DNA from: a virus
Taxonomy: Duplodnaviria; Caudoviricetes
Virus record (IMG/VR): IMGVR_UViG_3300021962_000122
Span: 1-58,552 of that record
DNA length: 58,552 nucleotides
Direction: 5' to 3' (one strand)
How positions within the stretch are numbered: the first letter of the stretch is position 1; each line of letters begins with the position of its first letter. The position numbers were made by a program, and so were the translations under genes. The notes beneath the pieces were generated by a model that searched no databases, was not told the DNA's origin, and worked only from the letters and a program-made list of their open reading frames with translations. Shown piece after piece: positions 8,994 through 23,245 of the stretch.

Positions 8994-11900
8994 ATGCCTC
9001 AAGCTGTCCCGTTACCAGATGGTAGTTACGTAGCAATCAGAGAGGGGGAGACCCCGCAGCAGGCATATGCCCGAGCGCAGCAGATGTACCCTGAGGCGTT
9101 TAGAGTAGCAGCCCCGGCAGCGCCAAAAGAAACTACGTTTGGCGGGCAGACCAAAGAATTTTTTAAAGGTCTTGTCCCCGGCGCTATCGGGCTTGTTGAA
9201 CAAGCGGGTACTGGTATCTCAGCACTGTTACCAGAAGAACAAGAAAAAGCCACTCAAAAATACATCAAAGAAACTGCTGCCGCAGCCAAAGCCCCGTTTG
9301 CCGCTGCGCCGGGGTATGAAGACACGGTGGGGCGCAAGTTTGGTGAAGCCGCAGGTTCTATTGCACCGTTCCTTGCCACTGGGCCGTTTGGTCTGGCAGG
9401 GCGTGTAGCCGGATACGGCCTTGGTGTTGGCGCTGGTGCTGGCACACAGGTAGAAAAGTCTGCCGCTGAAGGGGCTACAGAAGGACAGCAAACAGCCGCC
9501 ACCGCACTGGGTGCCGTGGTTGGCGCATCGGAGATGTTTGCCCCTGCACGTATTCTGAAGCGTCTTGGGGAGCCTGTGCTCGAGGGTGCCACGTCGTATG
9601 TGAAACGGGCATTGATGGCTGGCGGTGAGGAAGCCGCCCAAGAAGCCGCAGCACAAGCCGCACAGAATATTATTACCAAAGGTATATACAAACCTGAGCA
9701 AGAAATTATTGAGCAGGTTGGCGAGTCTGCCGCCTACGGCGGTGCGGTCGGTGCGTTGGCACAAGGGTTGTTGGACTTGGCCATTGGTCGTCGTGCGCCC
9801 ACAACCCCGCTTACAGACGAGGTAAAACAAGCCCGTGAAGAGGCGGCAGTGCAGGCAGAACAGGAAAAGATTCGCCTGAACAGTGTCGATTACGCCCAAG
9901 AAGTGTTCCAGAAAACGCAGGAATTGGAAGCTCAGCGTACTGCGCTCAAACAACAGTTGATTCCGATAAAAAAAGGCGTGTCCCCAGAAACAGACTACGC
10001 ACACAACCGCGACATCAACCGCCAGATCGAGGCCATCAACAAAGAACTCAAGCCGTTGGCTGATGAGTACGTGCGTGTCAAGCCTATTCTGAAACGTGCT
10101 GAGGAGGAAGCAAAGATTGCCAAGCTGACTCCGTACGAGTATGCGTTGGGCTTAAAACCAGAAGAAGTAGGGCAGAAACCTGCCGAGCCTGAGCTGTATG
10201 AACAGCAAATTGCCAAGCCGCCTGAGGCACCGAAGGCAGAGGATGTTGCAGCAAAGTATGCCGCACAGAGTATTCAGTTGGCCAATGACCAACAGCTATC
10301 AAGCGAGAAAAAACCAAACGACGCTGTTGCAGACTACGTTTCCTATCTGATGCGCGACCCCATGTTGGCCGATCAGATTGTGAATAAGCGGATGCAGCTG
10401 CCCGGCCTTCCAACTGGTGTGCGTAATTCAGCCGTACTGGACGCGTTGAAACTGCAACTGGCCCCCGGCTTCAAACAAGAGATGGAAACGCGCAAAGCCG
10501 CCTTTGGTGTGCCTAAAGCCGAAGAAGTCAAGACTCCAGAAGTACAGGCGTTCACTTCGTACATGGACGACCTCAAGAGCAAGCGCAACGACGTGGGCGA
10601 CGACATGTTCTTCAAGTACATGGTCGACCCAAAACTGGAGAAGATTGCGGAAGGTAAGCCCCCAGTCATAGCCGTAAACCCTGAGCTGAAACCCTTTGCC
10701 AACATCAAACGGGCAGAGCGTTCAAGGGAAAAAATAAACGGGTTGCTTGACAACATAGACCAAGCAAACGCAGACCGTGATGTGGCTTTGCGTTCTGGAA
10801 ACCGTGACGCTGCCGACGCAGCGTTTGAAAGAGGCCAAAAAGCGTTAGAACAAATTAATGCTTTTGTAGAACCTACACCCACTGGAGAAGTGACAAAGGG
10901 AAGGTTCCCAGCAGCGGCAACAGCCCCAGAATCCAGCATCTATGCCAAAGAAATACTGCGGGTTCGCAACGAACAGAACACGGCGTTAAACACCATTGAG
11001 GACAAGATTGACCGTCTGCGTCGTGGTGAGACATTGGGCAAAGAAGAAATGGCTGCCACATCGCCAGCCATACTGGCTCAGCAAGCCGAAGAAGCCCGTG
11101 GCAAATACATCTCTGCTGTACTGGAGGAAGCCGCTATCCACCGTCGTGTGGCTGGCAAACCTGAGTTGACCTACGACGAAGCCATCAAAGCCGCGTCTCG
11201 TATTCATGATGTGGTGGGGGAGTGGCTTGACCGTGCAAAGGCTGTACCCAAAAAGCCCGAGCTTGAAGAAGTGATCGTGCAGCCCGCGCAGATGCGGGCA
11301 AACAAACTTGTCCGTGGAGCTGTTACCAAACGTGTTTTGAAGACGCGTGATCTGGCCACAACGCCTTTAAACGAAATTGCACGCTTGAGCGACAAAGAAG
11401 TCAAACACTTCAAAGCTCAGATTGCCAAGGTTGTCGACAGCTTATCCGAATTGCCATCCACAGCCACTCGCGAAGTGCCCGTACTGAAGCAGCAGTTTGC
11501 TGCCACCGAAGCGCAGAAGGTTGCTGAAGCCAAAGGCGAGACAGCCAAGACCCTTGGCGGAGAGCTACGCCGCCTGCGTGAATACGTGGGCAACATGATT
11601 GACAAAGCGTTGACACGCAACCCACCGGAAGAAATACAAAATTCACTGGAACGCGTCAAAGAGATCATTGACGACGGCAAAGCCAGTAAAGAGTTACTTG
11701 ACGCAGCCCAGAATCAAGCTGCACGCATTCTGCGTGGCGAAGACCTCGGCAAGCAGGTGTACACAAAACGCGAAGCTGTCCCCGGCAAACGTGTTGTAGA
11801 AAATGTCCCCGGCAGAGAAGCTGAGACACGTTTTGGGGAACGCGGGCGCACATACAAGTCAGTGGGCTACGAAGCCGAACTGGCACCCGAGGGTAGCGCA

Positions 11901-14900
11901 CTGCGTGAGCTTCAAGATGCCATAAAGCTGTACGAACGTACAGCACAAGAAGGTGAAGTTGCGGGAGAAGGCGCAAAAGGCCAAGGGCAGTTGTTCCCAG
12001 AGACACGCAAAGAACTTGGCTACATCCGTGCCACACCAGCCAACTTTGCCAAGTCCCCACAGATCAAACCTGTATGGGAGGCGTTGGAACAAGCACGCAA
12101 GCTCAAGGCAAAAACAGAAGCCAACCAGAAAGCTCGTTCTGTCAGAGACAAACAAGGCTTTGCGCAAGTTGAAGCAATAGAAGAACAACTTGAAGCCATT
12201 AAAAACCAAATGCAGTTTTTCTTGCTTAAGCCGGGAGACTTCAATATTGGTAAATACTCAAATGCAGACATTGCAAAAATGTTTGCGTCATATCCAGAAG
12301 CAGGCGTTACAAAAGAAGACAAGCTGCTGATGGATCGGTACTTGCAAGTGTCTAGACAAAGTATTGGTAAAACAAAGGATCAACAAGAAAAAGCCATGTC
12401 CGTGTTTACTGCGGAAGAAAAGGCACGCGTAAATGAGTTAATCAGCGACTTCAACACAAACAAAATCCCTGAGTACGAAAAGAATGTTAAGCAGGCGCTG
12501 CAAGCGCTCTCATTGGGACAGCGTCTTGAAAGCACGAATAACCGTTTAGTTGAGTTGATGCAAGACAACAATGCGGCTGTGCGTAAACAATCAGAAGCAG
12601 CCCGCAAAACTGTTGAACCACTACTGGAGAAGTTAAAGCTTATCAAAGCCAGTTTGCGTAATTCTGTTTTGTTAACTGACGGCCAACGTGCAATGCTTGA
12701 TTCTGAAATTGCGTTGCAGTCACAACGTGGCGCATACAAAGACGCCATGGCCAAGGCAATGGGCAAAGCCCGTCAACGCCTGAGCGATACGTTGGGTGAG
12801 TTGCTTGACCCTGAAATTGAACGCGCACGTCGTGCGTTGAAAGCAGCCAAGACACGTTTGGCCACAGTCGAGTCGCAGATTGAAACGGCAAAGAAAGAAA
12901 TGACTGAGGGTACTGGCCAAGCGCCAAACCTGATTAACAACTTGCAAAAAGTTCAAGGGCTTGTTGAGAACATTGAGAAGGCTGAGACCGAACTGGCTGA
13001 CTTGCAAGAAGCACGCTTTGGTGAAATTGAGAACGACGTTGTTGTTACCGAAGCCATGCTGGACAAAGACCTCAAGGCAGAACGTGAGTACTTAGAACTG
13101 CTTGAGCGACAACTGGCTGATATGCGCAAAGAACCGTTGACTGCTGTAGAGCTTGGTGGTCGTGGTGAACTGGGCAAGTTGAAGTATCCGTTCTCTGCAC
13201 AACGTTTGGAAACACAAGTAAAGGCACAACAAGCGGCTGTTGATGAAGCGCAAAAGCGTGCTGAAGAATTCCAAAAAGACGTGCAGGTTTGGTGGCCCAA
13301 AGTTACTGCCGCATTCAAGAAAGATGGAATCAGCATCAAAGACTTGCCCGGCGCAGTGTTTAAGAAAGGCCGCAAAGTTGCTGAGATTGTTACGCCAGAA
13401 CAAAAACGCCTTGATGATTTACGTGACAAAGGTGTGCAGGCTGCAAAAGAAGTTGACGAAGCCGCAGTGCGTCAGCGGGTCAAAGACAAACAGATTCAAT
13501 TGTTCGATGACGAAATCTTTGATGCGCGTGGTGAAGTGCAGGCGTTTATGGGGCCTGAGGACATGGAAAAGTTGGCCGACATCATGGCTGACCCCAAGAC
13601 TACCAACGTCAAACGTGTACAGGCTACGCTCAAGCTGGGCGCTATGCAAAAAGTTGCTTCGTTGGAAGCACAAAAACAAGCGTTCATTGAGGGCAAGCCT
13701 GCACCAAAACCAAAAACTGCTACTGTGCCGAGCACCGTTGCGTTGGCGGCGGCTAAACCGTTTCGTACTGGCTCAGGCGTAGCAAAAGCGTTTACTCCAG
13801 CAGAAATGGATGAGCTGGCTCGCGCTGATATACGTGATGCCAATGAGTTGGCCAAAAAGATTCTGGGTACAAAAGCGCCGCAGTTGCCAGAACCAAGCAA
13901 ACGCAAGCAAGGCAAGATGCCTGACCCCAACCTTGGTTTGTTTGATGACTTTGAGTTTTCTCGCGGCACACCAGTTAAAGGTCTGACCAAGGCTGAGCTT
14001 GAAGCCGAACTCACTGCTGGTATGGGCGAGCCAGTTACTGGGCGCAAGATAGAAGCGATGGTGTCCAATAAATTGGCGGTGTATGAAAGTGTTCAAGATT
14101 TCCTTGACAAGCAACCAAAATTAAAAGGTGTAGGTAAGTCCAAATACGAGGGTTTAATCCCAGCAGATGCCAAAGGCTTTGTGCAAGATGGTAAAGCGGT
14201 ACTGTTTGCCAACAACATTGGTAAAGGCCACGGACTGGGCGTACTGCTCCACGAAGTCGGCGTGCATTTGGGATTCCGCAACTTCTTTAACGAAGGCCAG
14301 TACAACGCGTTGGTTAAGACAGTCAAGAACTGGGCAAACAAAACTGAAGACTCATTGGAAGCGCGTGTTGGTAAAGCCGCCGTGCGCAGGGTTGAGGCTG
14401 CTAACACTCCACCACACCAGATTGACGATGAGTTGTTGGCATACGCTGTTGAAGAAGCCATGCAGATGGGTGTAGAGCCTGTTGGCGTTAAAGGCGGCAA
14501 CGCAGTCAAAAACTGGTTGAAGATGGTGGTCGATGGGTTCAAGAAAGCGCTTGAGAAGTTTGGCATCACTTCTAAGAACTTGACTGCTGGCGACTTGGTT
14601 AACTTTGCCTACGGCGCAGCACACCTTGAACTCAAGGGAACTTGGCACGGCACAGGTGTTAAATTTGATATGTTTGACCATACGTACATGAGCACCGGGT
14701 CAAACGCACAAACGTATGGTTGGGGAACATACCGTGCACAAAAGTACGGCACTGCGCAGTCATATCAAATTGATGCAGCTACAAAACAGTACGACGATTG
14801 GGTTGAACGCCCAGATATACAAGCATGGCTTGAATCACAAAAACCTAAATTTACAGGTAAGTTGCCATCTGGTATTCCTGAGCAATTTTTAGTCATGCCT

Positions 14901-17900
14901 TTGGTTGAAGCCAATAACGCGTACGGAGGTCAAAACCCAAATAAAATTTTTAAAGAAGCTGTTCAAGGCGAAATTGAAAACATTGAAGAGGAAAGAAAAC
15001 AGTTTTCTAATTTAAGTAGTGCGCCGCGTGCTGTACTTGCATCACAAGTATCGCCTGCTAGGGCCGCAATAGCAGCGGCACAGTCTTCTGCACGCGTAAC
15101 TGCCAGACCCATAACTGCAACACCAGTTAGAAACTATGGGTACGGGCCTGTAACTAAACCTTTAAGTTGGCGTGTGGAATGGATGCGGGGGTTGTCTGAC
15201 GCAGAAGTAGATAAAAAAATTGAAGAGCTTAAAAAGTTTGCAGAAACTGCTGACGAACATTTAGAAGCGGTCAATCAATTTCCTGTCTATAAAGGCAAAG
15301 AATACATTGAGTTGTACAAAGCGTACCCCACTGCCGCAAAGGTCATACACGCATTTGACAAAATGATGGACGCCAACCAAGGCACACCACCGTCTTGGAA
15401 AGAAGCTATTGCCAGTGTGAAAGCTGAAGCAAGCAAAAGCGTAAAAGAGTTGGGGGAGTTTTTTGAACGTTTTACATACGGAAAAGACCCGTACACAAAA
15501 CAGGTGTACGACGAAGCAAAAGAAACTTTACGTGACATTGATGCGTTTGACATAAACGACTTTAAGTACAACCCTCCGTCTGGGCCACCTGTACCTGAAC
15601 CAGCAGGTTACATGATGCGCACGTTGCACACACGTCCTGAGAACGAGTACATTCTTTATGACAGCCTTGCAGACAAACAACCAGAAGTTGTTAAAGATGC
15701 GTTTAAACGTATCTACGATAATTTAGATAAAAAACAACAAGCTGTTTTTAACCGTTCAATAGGCTTTGTACGACCAGATCGGCAAAACGGGCGCGATTTG
15801 TATAACGCTTTAAGTGCCGTGCTTGAACAAGGCGGTATGCCTAGTAAGTTGTGCGACATGTTTGCATCTGAAATGCTGCATGCCGAAGGTGTTGCTGGTA
15901 TTAAGTTTTTTGACGGCGTGTCAAGATACTCAGCAGCACAAGGTACTCCGGGCACATACAACTACGTTGACTTTGGTGACAAAGATGAAGGTGCGCAGAT
16001 CATTGCCACCGACATTAATCCGATCAATCAAACACAGCCAATGCAAAAAAGCGAGATACTGTTCTCGCGTTCAGAAGAGTTTACAAACCCTGAGCTTGCC
16101 AAACAAAGCAAGTTTATTGCCAAAATTGTGGCCAAGCAAAGAAGCTGGTCTGAAAAGATTAAAGCCAATACAACCGGGCTGGCTTTTGAAACACAGCTTG
16201 TAGATAGATTTGCAGGCTTCGAGCGTTTGGCCAAATACATGGATCCGGTCAAAGGCACGCAGATGATGTACTACCTGCGCATGTATGACCAACGCATGAA
16301 TTTTGTGTCTCAAGCAGTATCCAATGGCGCACCGGCAATCGTGGAGAAAACACGGCCTGACGGCAAGGTTGAGCGTTTGATTGAGAGCAAAGAGAGCGCC
16401 AACATCCACAATGTTGTTCAGATTTTGAAAGAAGCCCAGCCAATGGTTGGCAACGCAGAAGCTGTAAACCGCATATTCACTTTGTACATGGCCGCTATTC
16501 GTGCGGACAACAAAGGATTGTCTTCATTGAACTTTGGTGAAGACGTTACACAAGAACTGCTCAACGAAACCATGGCCGCCATAAAGGCCACACCCGGCTT
16601 GGAAAAAGTTTTGAAGCAAGCTAAAGATGAGTACAACGCCTACAACCGTAATTTGGTTGAGTTTGTTGTCAGCACTGGCGCTCTTTCCAAAGAAGTCGGC
16701 AAGCGTCTGCTGAGCGAAAACGATTACATACCGTTCTACCGTGAACGCAATGGCGTGGCTGAGCTTGTTATTGGCAACGAATCTCCTATCCGCATTGGTA
16801 GTATTGCTGAGCAGCCGTATCTGCATGAACTTGTTGGTGGCGACAGGCCCATCCTCGACTTCATGACCAGCTCGGTGCAGAACACCAATCTGTTGATGGA
16901 CATGGGTATGCGCAACTTGGCAACCAAGAACGCTGTGTTTGAGCTGGTTGATTTGAAAGCTGCCAAGTTTGTGAAAATGTCTGCTGGCCCAGACGTTGTT
17001 AAATTCAAAGACAACGGAGAAGATCGCTACGCAGTGCTGGCTACCGAAAAAGTAAAAATTGGCAACAAAGAGTTTGATACTGGCGTTCCTGCCGACATAT
17101 TGGTCAAAGGCATGGAGGGCATCCCAACACAGATGCCAGCAATGTTACGCGTCATGGCGTTCCCAGCACAGATACTGCGCAAAGCTATTACCCTCAGCCC
17201 TTTGTACACAGCCAAACAGTTGTTCCGTGACTCCGTGGCCGCGCCTATTCTTTCTGGCGCAGACTTCATGCCTGTCATTGGTGCGCTGAAAGAAATCAAC
17301 TCCACCACCAAGCAGACGCTTGAGCGCCGTGGTGTTACCGGAGGCCAGCAGTTTGTTGGTGGTGCCGAAGATTTGACCAAGATTCTGCGTGATGTGTCTG
17401 AGGGCAAACCGGGCTGGATGACTGCGCTTGGTAAGCTTGAAGCCATGAGTATGGAAGCAGATGCCGCAACACGTCGCGCCCAGTACAACAGCTACATTCA
17501 GCAGGGCCTGTCTGAGATGGAAGCAACACTGCTGTCGTTGGAGTCCATGAACTTCAACAAGCGCGGCGCGTCACCATCAATCCATGTGGCCAACTCCCTG
17601 ATACCTTTTTTCAACGCACAGATTCAAGGTCTGAACGTGTTGTACAAAGCGTCTATGGGCAAGATGCCATTCAACGATCAGCTGCGTATCCGTGAAAAAA
17701 TGATGCAGCGTGGTGCCATGATGGCAGTTGCAAGCCTTGCTTACGCCGCCTTGATGCAGGACGACGAAGCTTACAAAAACGCCACACCCGATCAAAAATA
17801 CGGCAATTGGTTTATTCGTGTGCCGGGTTTAGACGAACCCATCAAACTCCCTGTGCCGTTTGAAATCGGTTACATCTTCAAGGCGTTGCCTGAGGCAATA

Positions 17901-18656
17901 CTCAACAGCATGGTGAACGAGCACGGCGGTGAGGAAGCGGTCAAAGCTTTCAAACAAATCCTGCTTCAAACAGTTCCCGGCGGTTCGTCTTACGGCATCC
18001 CGCAGATCATGAAACCCGCCATCGAAGCAGGACTTGGCAAGTCGTTCTACACAGGTAGGGACATCTTGTCTGCGCGAGAGAAAGAGTTGTTGCCTGAAGA
18101 ACAGTTCCGCGCCAACACATCCGAGCTGGCTAAAGGTATTGGTAAAACACTGGGTATCTCTCCGATTGTGTTTGAGCAACTTGTCAGTGGTTACACCGGC
18201 ACAATGGGTTTGGCATTTATGCACGCACTTAGTGTTGGCGTGCCTACGGATGAGAGTCCTGATAAAGCAGTTAAACGTTTGTCAGAGTACCCAATCGTTG
18301 GTGGGGCGTTCCAACCAAACGACGCTGGTGGCATCATCAACAGCGTGTACGAGCGCATGAATGAAAATCTCAAGGTCAAGAACACCTTCAATAAGTTGGC
18401 ACAAGAAGGCAGAATGTCTGAAGCTATGGCGTTGCTTCAACGTCGTGGTAATGAGTTCATGCAAGCAGACTTGGCGAACAGTTTCAAAGCCAACATGAAC
18501 AAACTTGCTCAGGCTGAACGGGCAATTGCAGCATCCAACATGTCCCCCGAAGCCAAGCGCGAACAGCTGGACAAAATCAGGAAGATAAAGATCGCCGTTG
18601 CTCAAACGGTGAGAGAGGTTTCCGATAAAACCATACGCCTAACAAGCCCCTTCTAA
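8994..18656 (+). CDS. Giant polyvalent virion protein: coiled coils, zincin-like peptidase, ART-like domain, LPD38-like C-terminus
   Basis: 3220-aa ORF containing LLHEVGVH...DDELLAY, WHGT...TG...AQTYGWGTY...GIKFFD...YNYVDF, and C-terminal IPFFNAQIQG...LPVPFEIG. Confidence 0.75.
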   Translation: MPQAVPLPDGSYVAIREGETPQQAYARAQQMYPEAFRVAAPAAPKETTFGGQTKEFFKGLVPGAIGLVEQAGTGISALLPEEQEKATQKYIKETAAAAKAPFAAAPGYEDTVGRKFGEAAGSIAPFLATGPFGLAGRVAGYGLGVGAGAGTQVEKSAAEGATEGQQTAATALGAVVGASEMFAPARILKRLGEPVLEGATSYVKRALMAGGEEAAQEAAAQAAQNIITKGIYKPEQEIIEQVGESAAYGGAVGALAQGLLDLAIGRRAPTTPLTDEVKQAREEAAVQAEQEKIRLNSVDYAQEVFQKTQELEAQRTALKQQLIPIKKGVSPETDYAHNRDINRQIEAINKELKPLADEYVRVKPILKRAEEEAKIAKLTPYEYALGLKPEEVGQKPAEPELYEQQIAKPPEAPKAEDVAAKYAAQSIQLANDQQLSSEKKPNDAVADYVSYLMRDPMLADQIVNKRMQLPGLPTGVRNSAVLDALKLQLAPGFKQEMETRKAAFGVPKAEEVKTPEVQAFTSYMDDLKSKRNDVGDDMFFKYMVDPKLEKIAEGKPPVIAVNPELKPFANIKRAERSREKINGLLDNIDQANADRDVALRSGNRDAADAAFERGQKALEQINAFVEPTPTGEVTKGRFPAAATAPESSIYAKEILRVRNEQNTALNTIEDKIDRLRRGETLGKEEMAATSPAILAQQAEEARGKYISAVLEEAAIHRRVAGKPELTYDEAIKAASRIHDVVGEWLDRAKAVPKKPELEEVIVQPAQMRANKLVRGAVTKRVLKTRDLATTPLNEIARLSDKEVKHFKAQIAKVVDSLSELPSTATREVPVLKQQFAATEAQKVAEAKGETAKTLGGELRRLREYVGNMIDKALTRNPPEEIQNSLERVKEIIDDGKASKELLDAAQNQAARILRGEDLGKQVYTKREAVPGKRVVENVPGREAETRFGERGRTYKSVGYEAELAPEGSALRELQDAIKLYERTAQEGEVAGEGAKGQGQLFPETRKELGYIRATPANFAKSPQIKPVWEALEQARKLKAKTEANQKARSVRDKQGFAQVEAIEEQLEAIKNQMQFFLLKPGDFNIGKYSNADIAKMFASYPEAGVTKEDKLLMDRYLQVSRQSIGKTKDQQEKAMSVFTAEEKARVNELISDFNTNKIPEYEKNVKQALQALSLGQRLESTNNRLVELMQDNNAAVRKQSEAARKTVEPLLEKLKLIKASLRNSVLLTDGQRAMLDSEIALQSQRGAYKDAMAKAMGKARQRLSDTLGELLDPEIERARRALKAAKTRLATVESQIETAKKEMTEGTGQAPNLINNLQKVQGLVENIEKAETELADLQEARFGEIENDVVVTEAMLDKDLKAEREYLELLERQLADMRKEPLTAVELGGRGELGKLKYPFSAQRLETQVKAQQAAVDEAQKRAEEFQKDVQVWWPKVTAAFKKDGISIKDLPGAVFKKGRKVAEIVTPEQKRLDDLRDKGVQAAKEVDEAAVRQRVKDKQIQLFDDEIFDARGEVQAFMGPEDMEKLADIMADPKTTNVKRVQATLKLGAMQKVASLEAQKQAFIEGKPAPKPKTATVPSTVALAAAKPFRTGSGVAKAFTPAEMDELARADIRDANELAKKILGTKAPQLPEPSKRKQGKMPDPNLGLFDDFEFSRGTPVKGLTKAELEAELTAGMGEPVTGRKIEAMVSNKLAVYESVQDFLDKQPKLKGVGKSKYEGLIPADAKGFVQDGKAVLFANNIGKGHGLGVLLHEVGVHLGFRNFFNEGQYNALVKTVKNWANKTEDSLEARVGKAAVRRVEAANTPPHQIDDELLAYAVEEAMQMGVEPVGVKGGNAVKNWLKMVVDGFKKALEKFGITSKNLTAGDLVNFAYGAAHLELKGTWHGTGVKFDMFDHTYMSTGSNAQTYGWGTYRAQKYGTAQSYQIDAATKQYDDWVERPDIQAWLESQKPKFTGKLPSGIPEQFLVMPLVEANNAYGGQNPNKIFKEAVQGEIENIEEERKQFSNLSSAPRAVLASQVSPARAAIAAAQSSARVTARPITATPVRNYGYGPVTKPLSWRVEWMRGLSDAEVDKKIEELKKFAETADEHLEAVNQFPVYKGKEYIELYKAYPTAAKVIHAFDKMMDANQGTPPSWKEAIASVKAEASKSVKELGEFFERFTYGKDPYTKQVYDEAKETLRDIDAFDINDFKYNPPSGPPVPEPAGYMMRTLHTRPENEYILYDSLADKQPEVVKDAFKRIYDNLDKKQQAVFNRSIGFVRPDRQNGRDLYNALSAVLEQGGMPSKLCDMFASEMLHAEGVAGIKFFDGVSRYSAAQGTPGTYNYVDFGDKDEGAQIIATDINPINQTQPMQKSEILFSRSEEFTNPELAKQSKFIAKIVAKQRSWSEKIKANTTGLAFETQLVDRFAGFERLAKYMDPVKGTQMMYYLRMYDQRMNFVSQAVSNGAPAIVEKTRPDGKVERLIESKESANIHNVVQILKEAQPMVGNAEAVNRIFTLYMAAIRADNKGLSSLNFGEDVTQELLNETMAAIKATPGLEKVLKQAKDEYNAYNRNLVEFVVSTGALSKEVGKRLLSENDYIPFYRERNGVAELVIGNESPIRIGSIAEQPYLHELVGGDRPILDFMTSSVQNTNLLMDMGMRNLATKNAVFELVDLKAAKFVKMSAGPDVVKFKDNGEDRYAVLATEKVKIGNKEFDTGVPADILVKGMEGIPTQMPAMLRVMAFPAQILRKAITLSPLYTAKQLFRDSVAAPILSGADFMPVIGALKEINSTTKQTLERRGVTGGQQFVGGAEDLTKILRDVSEGKPGWMTALGKLEAMSMEADAATRRAQYNSYIQQGLSEMEATLLSLESMNFNKRGASPSIHVANSLIPFFNAQIQGLNVLYKASMGKMPFNDQLRIREKMMQRGAMMAVASLAYAALMQDDEAYKNATPDQKYGNWFIRVPGLDEPIKLPVPFEIGYIFKALPEAILNSMVNEHGGEEAVKAFKQILLQTVPGGSSYGIPQIMKPAIEAGLGKSFYTGRDILSAREKELLPEEQFRANTSELAKGIGKTLGISPIVFEQLVSGYTGTMGLAFMHALSVGVPTDESPDKAVKRLSEYPIVGGAFQPNDAGGIINSVYERMNENLKVKNTFNKLAQEGRMSEAMALLQRRGNEFMQADLANSFKANMNKLAQAERAIAASNMSPEAKREQLDKIRKIKIAVAQTVREVSDKTIRLTSPF

Positions 18657-21687: not shown

Positions 21688-21897
21688 TTATTTAAAGTCG
21701 TCGGTTGCGTGCTCTACGCCTTGCTGAAAGCCTTCTTCAAACCCACTTTGGTATATGGTTTCTCTGTTGTCTATCAGTGCCGCCATGCGCTCAACAAGCG
21801 TCTCAATCCAGTCTGGAGGAACTCTGTCGAAGCCCATGATGTACACGTACCGCAAAAGCTCGTTGTCTGTCAGTTGCTTAGGTTGAACGCCTTGCAT
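21688..21897 (-). CDS. Hypothetical protein
   Basis: ORF with GGAG RBS, packed within the operon. Confidence 0.6.
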   Translation of the reverse strand: MQGVQPKQLTDNELLRYVYIMGFDRVPPDWIETLVERMAALIDNRETIYQSGFEEGFQQGVEHATDDFK

Positions 21898-22148
21898 GTT
21901 TTTCTCCAAGCCTCGTCGGCTGTGCTTGATGTTTGTAGGATTTTAAGAAGTGCGCTTGCCGATGGTCGGTAAGCGACAAACACTTCACCACCGCCGAACC
22001 AGTTGTAAACAGATTGGCGTGAAACACCAAGTGCCTGAGAGATTCGTACGACAGAGAAGTTGTGGTGAACAGCCCAGCGCCCCAGTTGGTTGCCCAACGT
22101 CTTCGGCGCTTTCATGACCATGTTGATTGTTTGTTGTGAGTAAGCCAT
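21870..22148 (-). CDS. Cro/XRE-like helix-turn-helix protein
   Basis: SVVRISQALGVSRQSVYNWF HTH signature. Confidence 0.75.
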   Translation of the reverse strand: MAYSQQTINMVMKAPKTLGNQLGRWAVHHNFSVVRISQALGVSRQSVYNWFGGGEVFVAYRPSASALLKILQTSSTADEAWRKTCKAFNLSN

Positions 22149-22151
22149 AAT

Positions 22152-22290
22152 TTTTAGGTGGGGGTACTCGCTGCACTGGTGGGATTCGAACCCACGGAGT
22201 TCCAAGCATTGCTCTTGACAGCCCTTGAAACTCTGTAGTCAAGTCACCAATAGACCAGACTCTGGCACAGCATCCGCTTTCCCCCCAAAA
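22152..22290 (-). ncRNA. Structured intergenic RNA element with tRNA-like T-arm
   Basis: Nested helices that use G-U pairs on the minus strand, a GUGGG-UUCGAAU-CCCAC arm and a GAA/AGUA internal loop. Confidence 0.6.
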
Positions 22291-22294
22291 CTCC

Positions 22295-23245
22295 TTACTC
22301 TTCGTCCCAATCGTCCACCATTGCCGCCAAGTTTGATTTCTTGGCAGGCACGGCACTTGGCTTCTTCTCTTCCTTGCGCACAGTCGGCTCCTCGCCCTCA
22401 TCCTCTGCAACAGTCGCGGTCTTGGCTTTCTTTGCCTTGGGTGCGGGTGCTGGCGGCTCGTCTTCCTCAGCTTCAACCTTGGCAGGGCGTGTGCCAGCAA
22501 TAGCCAGAGGAGCCGCCACAGTGGGGGCTTTTGGCATTGTCATCGCAACAGCACGCTTGGCTTCTGCTGACTCAGCTTTTTTGGACACAACCTCATACTC
22601 GTCTTCAGTCAACCAGCGCATCTCCTTGAAGAACAGCTTGGGGCTTTCAGACTTGGTATCAAACTTCAAACGTGTCACGACCAAGCTGGGGTCAATCGGT
22701 TCTTGCTGAGCCATCAACCACTTGATATACGCCTGTAATGGGCGGTTCTCACCTTCGCCATCACCAAAGATTGACTTAGCTGGCAGTGTCAACTGAAGGA
22801 TGTCGCCTTCCATGTCGTTGGCCAACACTACCGCAACACGTTGCTGATAGCGGCATGCGCGGCTGTTACCTTGACCAGACCCTGCGATGTTCTGTGGGCA
22901 CTCTTTGCAGTTGCTGTGTTGTCTGTTGCCAGCATCAACAGAGGGGGTCTTGCCGTCAGCAGACCAGCAGTCAGGCGCAGTTACTTCACCATCGTATGAT
23001 TTGGCATAAAACACGCGTCCAATCTCAGGCGCGGCGGCAACGAACACAACGTCCAGATAGCGTTCTTCGATTGAAGCGATTTCTTTACCGCCACTGTACA
23101 AGCGGAACACACCGCCCTTGATTGAGATACGCTTGGTGGTATCTACGTTGTTGCCAGCCAAAGCTTTGGCGACTGAGGACAGGCCTTCACGGCCTTTTGC
23201 AAACGCTGGTACGTTTGCTTTATTAAAAAGCGTCACATTGGTCAT
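22295..23245 (-). CDS. Putative single-stranded DNA-binding protein
   Basis: Cys cluster (PDCWS...CKECPQN...RAC), Ala/Pro/Lys linker and acidic tail DDWDEE, in the replication block. Confidence 0.65.
   Translation of the reverse strand: MTNVTLFNKANVPAFAKGREGLSSVAKALAGNNVDTTKRISIKGGVFRLYSGGKEIASIEERYLDVVFVAAAPEIGRVFYAKSYDGEVTAPDCWSADGKTPSVDAGNRQHSNCKECPQNIAGSGQGNSRACRYQQRVAVVLANDMEGDILQLTLPAKSIFGDGEGENRPLQAYIKWLMAQQEPIDPSLVVTRLKFDTKSESPKLFFKEMRWLTEDEYEVVSKKAESAEAKRAVAMTMPKAPTVAAPLAIAGTRPAKVEAEEDEPPAPAPKAKKAKTATVAEDEGEEPTVRKEEKKPSAVPAKKSNLAAMVDDWDEE

What the first reader, a model, noticed from the sequence alone, without database searches (positions are those of the whole stretch)
22149..22297. 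Structured RNA with a tRNA T-arm separating a Shine-Dalgarno from the next start codon
Seen on the minus strand: SSB stop TAA-GGAG, then UUUUGGGGGG-AAAGCGGAU-GCUGUGC...GUGCAGC-GAGUA-CCCCCACCUAAAA, then AUU-AUG of the HTH gene, which has no adjacent RBS. Inside are a 10-bp helix GAGUUUCAAG/CUUGGAACUC, a potential pseudoknot CUUGAC/GUCAAG, a hairpin CCAG/CUGG and a perfect T-arm GUGGG-UUCGAAU-CCCAC. Established: GAA/AGUA is the bulged-G (loop E/sarcin-ricin) motif, and hairpins can bring a distant RBS next to an AUG, as in T4 gene 38. Inference: a tRNA-mimic regulatory element, an excisable RNA or a decoy for anticodon nucleases, which may gate translation of the HTH regulator.
Basis: partly seen in the sequence, partly recalled or inferred. 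Interest (0 to 1): 0.8.

Follow-up and report, generated by a model that had tools for sequence, protein, structure and literature searches.

The report
Uncatalogued phage RNA with tRNA-like tip
The gap between two phage replication genes holds a genuinely folded RNA that belongs to a large, undescribed family of phage RNAs usually placed right after DNA-binding-protein genes, here carrying a rare tRNA-shaped tip, and its job is still unknown.

Summary

The family is a rod: a covarying 4-7 bp G/C closing stem, a GAAA/GAGUA bulged-G-type loop, a near-invariant core (GCGGAUG-CUG ... CAG-ACG/UG-YAGC), a variable tip and a 3' A-C-C-U tail.

In this window the tip is a rare tRNA-like domain: D-arm, a 10-bp arm knotted to a 6-bp pseudoknot, and a T-arm. 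Five sequences support it by covariation.

Relatives 99% identical in the flanks have only a 14-nt GGGGC-UUCG-GCCCC hairpin here.

Family-wide, the RNA follows the stop codon of ssDNA-binding-protein genes of several unrelated families. Function is untested.

My best guess is an intercistronic module whose stem keeps the split ribosome site together and whose stem-ACC end mimics tRNA/4.5S ends for RNase P-type maturation. First readers of this scan flagged the same family on other DNA (look-alikes in 17 and 28 windows); none of those listed had a follow-up.

The parts
22295..23245 (-). It has an acidic C-terminus ...DDWDEE and stop TAA at 22297-22295.
   Evidence: ORF list. No Pfam hit. PHROG 27714, function unknown. 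AF2 model is weak (pLDDT 56.5) and the best Foldseek E is 0.034. SSB identity is not verified. In other phages the same position, before the same RNA, is held by true ssDNA-binding proteins.
22291..22294 (-). GGAG, a Shine-Dalgarno-like word 5' of the closing stem.
   Evidence: An SD-like word lies 5' of the stem in 31 of 41 distinct SSB-HTH spacers, and none lies between stem and AUG.
22282..22286 (-). P1 5' strand, GGGGG.
   Evidence: Pairs with 22160-22164. P1 covaries in the family.
22278..22281 (-). GAAA, the 5' half of the bulged-G (loop E / S-turn) type internal loop.
   Evidence: R 0.91 G, then A 0.97, 1.00, 1.00 in 104 members. Opposite GAGUA at 22165-22169.
22268..22277 (-). 5' core GCGGAUG-CUG. 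GC pairs with GC of the 3' core, and CUG is the P3 5' strand.
   Evidence: In 87 loci retrieved by the 3' pattern alone, 67 have exactly GAAAGCGGATG and 76 are within one mismatch. RNAalifold pairs GC/GC and CUG/CAG.
22247..22265 (-). D-arm-like hairpin CCAG-AGUCUGGUCUA-UUGG, with GG in the loop. It follows a 2-nt UG linker, like tRNA positions 8-9.
   Evidence: 95% paired, 2 of 4 pairs compensatory in 5 sequences.
22238..22243 (-). Pseudoknot 5' strand, CUUGAC.
   Evidence: Pairs with 22214-22219. 100% paired, 5 of 6 pairs changed on both sides. Equivalents: UCUGGC/GCCAGA in L154, UGUGAC/GUCAUG in L232, AGUAGA/UCUACU in L272.
22197..22233 (-). 10-bp arm GAGUUUCAAG/CUUGGAACUC with a 17-nt loop. 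The loop holds the pseudoknot 3' strand GUCAAG (22214-22219) and a conserved GCAAU.
   Evidence: 92% paired, 5 of 10 pairs compensatory.
22179..22195 (-). T-arm GUGGG-UUCGAAU-CCCAC, directly abutting P3 as in the tRNA acceptor/T stack.
   Evidence: Rfam tRNA model positions 46-63, 14.6 bits. 100% paired, 2 of 5 pairs compensatory.
22165..22178 (-). 3' core CAG-UG-CAGC-GAGUA: P3 3' strand, linker, GC of P2, and the AGUA side of the S-turn.
   Evidence: AGCGAGUA is 0.97-1.00 conserved. There are two linker variants, ACG (74) and UG (31), in 105 members.
22160..22164 (-). P1 3' strand, CCCCC.
22157..22159 (-). ACC tail, followed by U and an A/U-rich run.
   Evidence: In 104 members the tail is A 0.70, C 0.89, C 0.79, U 0.59. 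This is the same end design as the SRP (4.5S) RNA of three Burkholderiales genomes.
21870..22148 (-). Downstream 92-aa HTH gene. AUG is at 22148, 11 nt after P1, with no SD in between.
   Evidence: Weak Pfam HTH_23/HTH_28 hits. PHROG 8, transcriptional regulator. The start is conserved in relatives.

Best explanation
Window 22157-22286 (minus strand) encodes a folded RNA of about 130 nt that lies inside the replication-gene messenger.

Shown:
- It belongs to a large phage RNA family absent from Rfam 15.
- The family is a rod: a short covarying G/C stem (P1), a GAAA/GAGUA bulged-G-type loop, a near-invariant irregular helix, a variable tip and an A-C-C-U tail.
- It usually starts about 6 nt after the stop codon of an ssDNA-binding-protein gene and ends about 20 nt before the next start codon.
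- In this window the tip is a rare tRNA-like module: 2-nt linker, D-arm, a pseudoknotted long arm in place of the anticodon and variable arms, and a T-arm stacked on the rod.
- The whole RNA occupies the loop position of a small, very stable hairpin that nearest relatives carry between an SD-like word and the AUG of the HTH gene.

Inferred, locally: P1 does the job of that small hairpin. It holds GGAG and the AUG together, so the HTH regulator is translated only from correctly folded RNA. This would be a split ribosome-binding site like those of T4 genes 38 and 25.

Inferred, family-wide: the G-start stem followed by A-C-C copies the end of tRNAs and of the host 4.5S RNA. RNase P (5' side) and 3' trimming would then cut out a stable small RNA and split the operon messenger after the abundant ssDNA-binding-protein cistron. 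The invariant rod would be a docking site for a host factor. tRNA-like tips would add contacts with enzymes that read the tRNA elbow.

My odds: real conserved structured RNA family 0.9; split-RBS role of P1 in this lineage 0.5; RNase P-type maturation 0.3.
For: Insertion relative to close kin. L001-L003 are 96-99% identical in both flanks but have 24 nt where the window has 142.

Family size and conservation.
- There are 181 unique members with P1 of 4 bp or more.
- P1 is 93% paired against 60% with shuffled partners.
- RNAalifold finds 9 pairs, 6 of them compensatory.
- Retrieval by the 3' pattern alone gives the 5' core within one mismatch in 76 of 87 loci.
- Rfam gives no match to the window or to 12 loci holding members at gathering scores, and nothing relevant at E up to 10 on a short member.

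Tip fold; 96.8% paired, 14 of 31 pairs compensatory, 0 of 500 shuffles as high.

RNA rather than DNA.
- 20 of 533 P1 pairs are G-U.
- A same-strand upstream ORF ends within 90 nt in 78 of 106 members, and a same-strand downstream ORF starts within 90 nt in 79 of 106.
- No promoter or terminator match lies nearby on that strand.

Position. The stop codon lies a median 6.5 nt before P1, and the start codon a median 20 nt after it.

Upstream genes. Among 64 distinct proteins from loci not fetched with the SSB bait:
- Pfam: Enc34 ssDNA-binding 6, DUF669 5, SSB 4, RecT 1.
- PHROG families named single-strand DNA binding: 9, 8, 5, 5, 4 and 3 members, plus gp2.5-like 6.

Split RBS.
- Of 78 related loci, 51 carry a small GC hairpin, 14 this family and 11 other structured RNAs in the same slot.
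- An SD-like word lies 5' of the stem in 31 of 41 distinct spacers and between stem and AUG in 0 of 41.
- T4 genes 38/25 are the precedent (PMC3014915, passages).

Ends.
- The tail is A .70, C .89, C .79, U .59, and position -1 is C .58.
- Bacterial RNase P RNA pairs with R73-C74-C75, and pre-4.5S RNA is a natural hairpin substrate (PMC11143913, passages).
- The SRP RNA of 3 of 3 Burkholderiales genomes that carry a family member ends in stem + ACC + U-run.

RNA libraries. Contigs of two metatranscriptomes cover the element (X15 records 4 and 5, X19 record 11). Others join its two conserved ends around different tips.
Against: - No experiment or read-end data exists. The RNA runs are contigs, can contain DNA, and run on into flanks, so they show neither expression nor processing.
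- With P1 closed, GGAG is still 4 + 11 = 15 nt from the AUG, which is longer than in T4 gene 25 (11 nt).
- 10 of 41 spacers lack an SD-like word 5' of the stem, and my stem and SD finder is crude.
- P1 is only 4-5 bp in 78 of 104 members. This is shorter than a 7-bp acceptor stem, which the YrlA authors call a major RNase P determinant (PMC4201824).
- The fourth tail base is mostly U, not A.
- If RNase P cut 5' of P1, it would separate GGAG from the HTH AUG, so the two inferred roles compete.
- An invariant core of about 25 nt is more than a stabiliser or a processing site is expected to need.
- Conservation of the 5' core in loci L084-L201 is partly imposed by the search pattern.
- The window's 316-aa protein is not shown to be an SSB.
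- The phage encodes no CCA-adding enzyme.
Confidence: 0.5

Rival explanations
1. One reading: a tRNA mimic acting as a decoy for anticodon nucleases or other tRNA-targeting defences, or as a tRNA-like regulator, with the T-arm and elbow as the working part.
For: - D-arm with GG, a canonical UUCGAAU T-loop and P3/T-stem stacking are kept by covariation.
- At least six different tRNA-like tips are grafted on the same rod in tRNA geometry.
- ARAGORN calls one of them (L082) tRNA-Thr; the other 13 loci tested gave none.
Against: - There is no anticodon stem-loop. The position is taken by a pseudoknotted 10-bp arm.
- Only 1 of 144 members from T-loop-independent retrieval has a strict T-arm, yet the rod is conserved in all. 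The tRNA shape therefore cannot be the family's function.
- ARAGORN finds 0 tRNAs in the window.
Confidence: 0.12
2. A translational operator or sensor. The invariant rod binds a protein (for instance the small HTH or winged-helix regulator encoded downstream, as Aca1/Aca2 bind hairpins in their own 5' UTRs) or a small ligand. This controls ribosome access to the gene about 20 nt downstream.
For: - The RNA ends a median 20 nt before the next start codon.
- Among 60 distinct downstream proteins, PHROG 1123 (unknown function; winged-helix-like by my reading only) matches 12, and regulator families 35 and 8 match 4 each. These matches may overlap.
- HTH regulators Aca1 and Aca2 bind structured RNA in their operon leaders (PMC13551039, abstract and passages).
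Against: - The same invariant core precedes unrelated genes: primase, exonuclease, MazG, polymerase, lipoprotein.
- It also precedes regulators of at least three different families, which would not share one RNA specificity.
- The downstream genes suggest no metabolite-linked regulon.
- A simple rod with one internal-loop region is unlike most riboswitch aptamers (my own recall).
Confidence: 0.12
3. A selfish or neutral passenger: a recombination-mobile RNA cassette that lodges in the loop of intercistronic GC hairpins, where a closed stem makes it harmless.
For: - Presence/absence differs between genomes 96-99% identical in the flanks.
- A second, different T-loop element is present in L082 but absent from its near-twin L083.
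- The same slot holds at least three unrelated structured RNAs.
- L029 shares the window's stem and flanks but has another tip.
Against: - Near-invariance of about 25 core bases and of the ACC tail across phages with unrelated neighbouring genes implies selection on the RNA itself.
- There is one copy in this 58.5-kb genome, with no MITE-like multiplication.
- No associated mobility gene was seen.
Confidence: 0.1
4. A new class of small self-cleaving ribozyme that cuts the polycistronic messenger between cistrons.
For: - Invariant bases are concentrated in internal loops and flanked by covarying helices and a free-form tip.
- The location is intercistronic in phages, with tandem copies (L095, L098).
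- No Rfam class matches.
Against: - The fold is a continuous rod with no second element to dock on.
- Nothing in the data marks a cleavage site.
- Contigs from RNA libraries run through the element, though contigs cannot show cuts.
Confidence: 0.07
5. A bacterial Y RNA (YrlA-type) or another known tRNA-like RNA (tmRNA, degenerate tRNA gene, attP remnant of a tRNA gene).
For: A long terminal stem plus a tRNA-like D/T domain resembles the overall layout of YrlA (PMC4201824, passages). T-arm match to the tRNA model.
Against: - No TROVE/Rsr gene in the phage.
- I saw no GNCGAAN0-1G in the sequence (read by eye).
- Arm order is D then T, with the ends in the acceptor position, the reverse of YrlA.
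- ARAGORN finds no tRNA or tmRNA, and Rfam gives 14.6 bits against 29.
- Acceptor-like pairing leaves a rod, not a 7-bp stem.
- No integrase turned up among the 25 window ORFs put through Pfam, and most members lack any tRNA part.
Confidence: 0.03
6. A DNA-level signal that works as single-stranded DNA, for example a priming or origin signal next to the ssDNA-binding-protein and primase genes.
For: It sits in the replication module, directly after ssDNA-binding-protein genes of several families. In this window it lies two genes before the DUF927 primase-helicase.
Against: - Its strand always matches the flanking genes' coding strand where these could be called.
- It has G-U pairs, a bulged-G loop pattern and tRNA-type T/D loops.
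- Its placement relative to stop and start codons is exact.
- All of this fits RNA better.
Confidence: 0.04

Closest known systems
Split translation-initiation regions of phage T4 genes 38 and 25 (SD, intervening hairpin, AUG)
   Same: An SD-like word sits 5' of a stable structure, and the AUG lies 3-16 nt (mostly 5-10) 3' of it, with no SD in between. The arrangement is conserved across a phage lineage (PMC3014915).
   Different: Here the intervening structure ranges from a 14-nt tetraloop hairpin to RNAs of about 130 nt that have their own conserved core. The residual spacing in this window is 15 nt. No mutational or probing data exist.
tRNA-like non-coding RNAs: bacterial YrlA Y RNAs, the tmRNA tRNA-like domain, and the stable RNAs of the T4 tRNA cluster (the last recalled, not checked)
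   Same: D-loop GG and a T-loop UUCGAAU on a cloverleaf-like junction, with the ends held in a long stem. One YrlA is cut by RNase P and receives CCA (PMC4201824).
   Different: No Ro60 gene, no GNCGAAN0-1G, opposite arm order, and no anticodon or tag region. The tRNA-like part is optional in the family.
Hairpin-type RNase P substrates (pre-4.5S/SRP RNA) and the RCCA-RNase P RNA interaction
   Same: A G-start closing stem followed by A-C-C. Host SRP RNAs of Burkholderiales end the same way (PMC11143913).
   Different: The stem has only 4-7 standard pairs before a non-standard loop, the fourth tail base is mostly U, and cleavage has not been tested.
Intercistronic processing and stability elements of phage operons (T7 RNase III sites; recalled, not checked here)
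   Same: Irregular hairpins with internal loops fill the gaps between cistrons of polycistronic phage messengers.
   Different: About 25 near-invariant bases are shared among very different phages, together with a bulged-G loop, an ACC tail and swappable complex tips.
Bulged-G / loop E / sarcin-ricin S-turn motif
   Same: AGUA lies opposite GAA, next to a standard pair, and is near-invariant.
   Different: Only the sequence pattern is shown. In 8% of members the G is A. There is no 3D or probing evidence and no GAGA loop.
Candidate structured RNAs catalogued from IMG/VR (Fremin et al. 2023, PMC10690425)
   Same: Same data source and the same kind of object. That catalogue reports tRNA-like and gene-proximal candidates (abstract and passages).
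   Different: The main text that I read does not describe this motif.

Membership tests
tRNA (Rfam RF00005 / ARAGORN) | Full cloverleaf scoring at or above the family threshold | tested here: not met
   ARAGORN: 0 genes in the window. Rfam: only model positions 46-63 match, at 14.6 bits against a gathering score of 29.
tRNA (Rfam RF00005 / ARAGORN) | Anticodon stem-loop of 5 bp and 7 nt | tested here: not met
   The position is taken by a 6-bp pseudoknot strand and a 10-bp arm with a 17-nt loop, both supported by covariation.
tRNA (Rfam RF00005 / ARAGORN) | T-arm (5 bp, UUCRANY loop) and D-arm with GG | tested here: met
tmRNA | tRNA-like ends plus a tag reading frame | tested here: not met
   ARAGORN finds no tmRNA. 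Rfam gives no hit at gathering scores.
YrlA / bacterial Y RNA | Encoded next to a Ro60 (TROVE) gene | tested here: not met
   No TROVE match in the 58.5-kb phage record. The control search found it in 2 of 14 genomes.
YrlA / bacterial Y RNA | GNCGAAN0-1G on the 5' strand, and a T-arm before the D-arm with an acceptor-like hairpin between them | tested here: not met
   Features as described in PMC4201824. Here the order is D-arm then T-arm, the RNA ends are in the acceptor position, and no such word is seen.
Split TIR of T4 gene 38/25 type | SD 5' of a structure, AUG just 3' of it, and no SD between them | tested here: met
   Window: GGAG, 4 nt, the structure, 11 nt, AUG. Lineage: 31 of 41 spacers have the SD-like word 5' of the stem, and 0 of 41 between stem and AUG.
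Split TIR of T4 gene 38/25 type | Destabilising the structure lowers translation and compensatory changes restore it | not testable with these tools
   This needs reporter assays.
Bacterial RNase P substrate | A G+1/C72-type pair at the stem end, followed by R73-C74-C75 | tested here: met
   Window: G...C, then A-C-C. Family tail frequencies are A .70, C .89, C .79.
Bacterial RNase P substrate | Cleavage by RNase P at the 5' base of the stem | not testable with these tools
   Only contigs were available from RNA runs, so no ends can be read.
Bulged-G (loop E / sarcin-ricin) motif | AGUA opposite GAA, flanked by a standard pair | tested here: met
   Sequence pattern only.
Bulged-G (loop E / sarcin-ricin) motif | S-turn backbone and the G-U-A base triple | not testable with these tools
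   This needs structure probing or a solved structure.
Any Rfam 15 family | Score at or above the family's gathering score | tested here: not met
   The window gave 0 hits. Twelve loci with family members gave only an unrelated int-alpA RNA and a true tRNA. A short member searched at E up to 10 gave nothing relevant.
23S rRNA GTPase-associated-centre mimic (lead from earlier finding e1-6042231) | H43 and H44 hairpins on an H42 stem | tested here: inconclusive
   I compared by eye with the rRNA sequence as I recall it; no call was made. An H44-like hairpin AGC-GGAU-GCU would clash with P3, which keeps pairing through changes in L057, L069 and L098. That finding shares no short words with this element.

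The most novel reading that the evidence does not exclude
The rod with its stem-ACC end is a universal 'handle' that lets phages feed custom RNAs into the host tRNA/4.5S maturation pathway (RNase P, 3' trimming, CCA repair). This would yield stable small RNAs whose swappable tips (tRNA-elbow mimics, double T-loop modules, antisense loops) act in trans on host translation or tRNA-directed defences, while the cut also sets the ratio of ssDNA-binding protein to downstream replication regulators. A second bold reading that remains open is that the invariant core is a new self-cleaving ribozyme.
Probability: 0.12. Interest if true: 0.85.

Novelty: new variant of a known kind. Interest (0 to 1): 0.68.

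Why it matters
If this holds, freshwater and estuarine phages of Burkholderiales and their relatives share an abundant, sharply conserved RNA module that no catalogue names. It is tied to the most highly expressed replication gene and has a plug-in tip.

- It offers a clean test of how a large folded RNA can sit inside a ribosome-binding site.
- It offers a candidate natural non-tRNA substrate for RNase P.
- It is an example of modular RNA evolution, with tRNA-like bodies grafted onto a foreign stem in tRNA geometry.
- Together with earlier notes from this scan, it points to the gap after ssDNA-binding-protein genes as a general docking slot for phage non-coding RNAs.

Tried and rejected
- GenBank phages. 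blastn of the element and of a short member found only tRNA T-arms or chance matches inside genes. The motif was not found there at blastn sensitivity.
- Metagenome scan for more copies of this tip type. It returned one locus (L355), on a contig of the same length as that of L232.
- Covariance model R1, built from 30 short members. It cannot span the long tip: the window's own element scores 9.2 bits and is misaligned. It found no other credible copy in the window (best 11.1 bits, E 0.59).
- First alignment A4 used wrong coordinates for L339. Redone as A5 and A7.
- SSB identity of the 316-aa protein. No Pfam hit, PHROG of unknown function, AF2 pLDDT 56.5 and best Foldseek hit E 0.034 to a phiC31 integrase-RDF fusion chain. 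hhalign against a Pam3 gp34-like and an Enc34-type protein gave nothing. Left unverified.
The term appears in 0 papers, and no Rfam family matched.
- Literature searches found no description of this motif. The library lacks most subscription journals, and the supplements of PMC10690425 were closed.
- CsrA-site and H44-like hairpin readings of GCGGAUGC. Rejected because P3 keeps pairing in variants that break that hairpin.
- An alternative core register (GCG/CGC plus tandem GA) fits a minority variant. RNAalifold and the UG-linker variant favour GC/GC plus CUG/CAG.
- RNA runs. Contigs only; parts without cover and the lack of ends say nothing.
- No CCA-adding enzyme gene in the phage.
Full report
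1. The observation.

On the minus strand the 316-aa ORF stops at TAA 22297-22295. The sequence then runs GGAG (22294-22291), UUUU, GGGGGG, AAAGCGGAUGCUGUG......CAGUGCAGCGAGUA, CCCCC, ACC, UAAAAAUU, and AUG at 22148 for a 92-aa HTH protein.

RNAfold gives a four-way junction closed by the G/C stem. The energy is -56.4 kcal/mol, only z -2.2 against shuffles. ARAGORN finds no tRNA or tmRNA in the 58.5-kb window. Rfam 15 has no hit at gathering scores. At E up to 10, only the T-arm matches the tRNA model (positions 46-63, 14.6 bits against 29).

2. It is an insertion relative to close kin.

Eighty IMG/VR loci encode relatives of the upstream protein. None has the T-loop word. In L001-L003 both flanks align at 96-99% identity, but 24 nt stand where the window has 142. 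Those 24 nt are GGC-GGGGC-UUCG-GCCCC-UUACAAC, a tetraloop hairpin between GGAG and AUG.

3. It belongs to a large family.

- Exact-pattern scans of IMG/VR with pieces of the element found other copies in unrelated contexts.
- A scripted definition was used: 5' AAGCGGAT and 3' AGCGAGTA, each with at most one mismatch, and at least 4 P1 pairs in fixed register. It now gives 181 unique members in the loci held.
- Anatomy:
  - P1 of 4-7 bp (37, 41, 18 and 8 members).
  - R-AAA opposite G-AGUA.
  - GC/GC.
  - GGAUG opposite ACG-Y-A (74 members) or UG-Y-A (31 members).
  - P3 CUG/CAG.
  - A tip that brings the stretch from AAGCGG to GAGUA to 46-227 nt.
  - A tail of A .70, C .89, C .79, U .59, with C .58 at position -1.
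- P1 is 93% paired against 60% (maximum 65%) when partners are shuffled among members.
- RNAalifold on 30 short members predicts 9 pairs, 6 of them with compensatory changes, including all four P1 pairs.
- Because the first scan fixed the 5' core, I repeated retrieval with the 3' core plus ACC only. Of 87 new loci, 67 have exactly GAAAGCGGATG and 76 are within one mismatch. Two are cut by contig ends.
- Rfam does not know the family.
- GenBank phages do not show it by blastn.
- One pattern scan of 185,579 species genomes gave 19 loci. About half are Burkholderiales (Xylophilus, Polaromonas, Comamonas, Limnohabitans, Paraburkholderia, Burkholderiaceae, Fluviibacter). The rest are a Rheinheimera isolate and MAGs of other phyla.

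4. The tRNA-like tip.

Five sequences share this tip: the window, L154, L232, L339 and L272.

On alignment A7 the proposed structure is GC/GC, G-C, P3, D-arm CCAG/UUGG, pseudoknot CUUGAC/GUCAAG, the 10-bp arm and the T-arm. It is 96.8% paired, with 14 of 31 pairs changed on both sides. None of 500 shuffles reaches that, and slid controls reach 36-46% paired with 1-3 such pairs.

The pseudoknot is fully paired in all five and compensatory at 5 of 6 pairs.

Caveats: there are only five sequences, two of them near-identical, and the structure was derived from them.

The layout copies tRNA: P3, then a 2-nt linker, then the D-arm, and a T-stem abutting P3. There is no anticodon arm.

T-loop-directed scans found at least five other tRNA-like tip types on the same rod. 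ARAGORN calls one of them tRNA-Thr, in 1 of 14 loci tested. In the sets retrieved without a T-loop in the pattern, a strict T-arm occurs in 1 of 144 members. L120/L193 and L099 have looser ones. The tRNA shape is therefore a rare option, not the family's core.

5. Context.

- A same-strand ORF ends within 90 nt upstream in 78 of 106 members. Its stop codon lies a median 6.5 nt before P1 (quartiles 5 and 9).
- A same-strand ORF starts within 90 nt downstream in 79 of 106 members, a median 20 nt after P1.
- 64 distinct upstream proteins come from loci not fetched with the SSB-like bait.
  - Pfam finds Enc34 ssDNA-binding 6, DUF669 5, SSB 4, Pam3 gp34-like 3 and RecT 1.
  - PHROG families named single-strand DNA binding match 9, 8, 5, 5, 4 and 3 members, and gp2.5-like 6. 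These matches overlap in part.
  - The window's own family (phrog 27714) matches 5.
  - 40 to 60 of the 64 carry no such label.
- Downstream proteins (60 distinct) are mixed: PHROG 1123 (function unknown) 12, regulator families 4 and 4, plus primase, exonuclease, MazG and polymerase.
- The window's neighbours are replication genes: DUF927 primase-helicase, SNF2 helicase, PD-(D/E)XK nuclease and DNA polymerase A.
- No TROVE or CCA-adding enzyme gene is present.
- No promoter-like or terminator-like site lies next to the element on its strand.

6. The slot in this lineage.

Of the 80 bait loci, 2 end too early. The other 78 carry the following (with my reading of its 'other' rows):
- a small GC hairpin in 51 (UUCG loop in 37, other loops in 14);
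- this family in 14;
- other structured RNAs in 11 (L059; L062-L068; L078-L080);
- a long spacer in 2.

Among 41 distinct spacers with a closing stem, an SD-like word lies 5' of the stem in 31. None lies between stem and AUG in any of the 41. The stem-to-AUG distance is 3-16 nt.

This is the split initiation region described for T4 genes 38 and 25 (PMC3014915, passages). It cannot be the family's general role, however, because most members stand before genes with their own SD.

7. Ends.

The G-start stem followed by A-C-C is what bacterial RNase P RNA reads (R73-C74-C75 pairing with GGU of P15). Pre-4.5S RNA is a natural hairpin substrate (PMC11143913, passages).

In three Burkholderiales genomes that hold a family member, the SRP RNA match ends with a closing stem, then ACC, then a U-run. 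The larger RNAs in the slot tend to carry NCC tails, while the small hairpins do not.

This is analogy, not proof. P1 is short, and base 4 of the tail is mostly U.

8. Expression.

Fourteen runs catalogued as DNA hold half or more of the sampled words of the 701-nt stretch. One of them may be the source of this DNA, and the holding runs come from 12 studies.

In four metatranscriptome runs, contigs cover the element (X15 records 4 and 5; X19 record 11). Other contigs join its two conserved ends around different inserts. Contigs can hold DNA and show no ends, so this is a weak hint only.

9. Known families.

It is not a tRNA, tmRNA or YrlA, and it is in no Rfam family (see the membership table). 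It works most like a split-RBS hairpin locally. Possibly it works like a tRNA/4.5S-type processing substrate generally.

A catalogue of over 10,000 IMG/VR candidate RNAs exists (PMC10690425; abstract and passages read). Its supplementary tables were closed, so an unnamed entry for this motif cannot be excluded.

HTH regulators that bind RNA hairpins in their own leaders (Aca1/Aca2; PMC13551039) offer a rival mechanism.

10. Earlier notes of this scan.

First readers flagged the same family on other DNA. Look-alike stretches were found in 17 and 28 windows, and none of the findings listed had a follow-up.

Follow-up agents described other, unrelated structured RNAs in the gap after SSB-like genes. 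My slot analysis agrees with this.

11. Verdict.

This is a real member of a widespread, uncatalogued phage RNA family. It carries a rare, covariation-supported tRNA-like tip and sits inside a conserved SD-stem-AUG arrangement. Function is unknown. The mechanisms I give are inferences with stated odds.

Noticed in passing
L062-L068 (about 130-143 nt after the SSB-like stop) and L078-L080: A different conserved structured RNA fills the same SSB-HTH slot. Its closing stem is (C)GGGAGGUAGC/GCUACCUCCC(G) and its tail is CCC or ACC. L078-L080 carry a similar inner part on a different closing stem, CGCUAGG/CCUAGCG.
   Followed up: partly
L082:1186-1270 (absent from its near-twin L083): A second, smaller element directly follows the first. 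It has a closing stem GGGGCGCGC/GUGCGCCCC, an ACC tail, and a T-arm-like AGGG-UUCGACU-CCCU inside. This is a clean presence/absence pair.
   Followed up: partly
L084, L109, L124 (just after the family member) and L059 (alone in the slot): Another recurring motif begins GCC(C/A)AGCCGG(A/U)GGUGGCG and ends ...GACCCCGCAC.
   Followed up: no
L108 and L126, after the family member: A further element of about 100 nt is closed by GGGAAACA/UGUUUCCC and is again followed by ACC. L095 and L098 carry tandem copies of the family.
   Followed up: no
L340, L343, L345, L350, L348 (tips of family members): The tip carries two T-loop-like hairpins (for example GCCGG-UUUGAUU-CCGGC and GGUGG-UUCGACU-CCACC) around a small hairpin. 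It recalls double T-loop modules that bind tRNA elbows. That comparison is from my recall and is untested.
   Followed up: no
window 8994-18656 (+): A single ORF of 3220 aa, the largest in the record. It was not searched against any library.
   Followed up: no
L232:13649-13699: A true tRNA gene (Rfam 33.2 bits, cut by the contig end) lies a few bases after the tRNA-like family member.
   Followed up: no
Alignment A2 (upstream proteins of family members): One of the 64 upstream proteins matches the Thoeris anti-defence Tad2-like domain (E 3.6e-26). Four match a PHROG family annotated as nucleotidyltransferase.
   Followed up: no
window 21870-22205 (-): The mechanical ORF list starts the HTH frame at a TTG inside the RNA element (111 aa). 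Relatives support the AUG at 22148 (92 aa) instead.
   Followed up: yes
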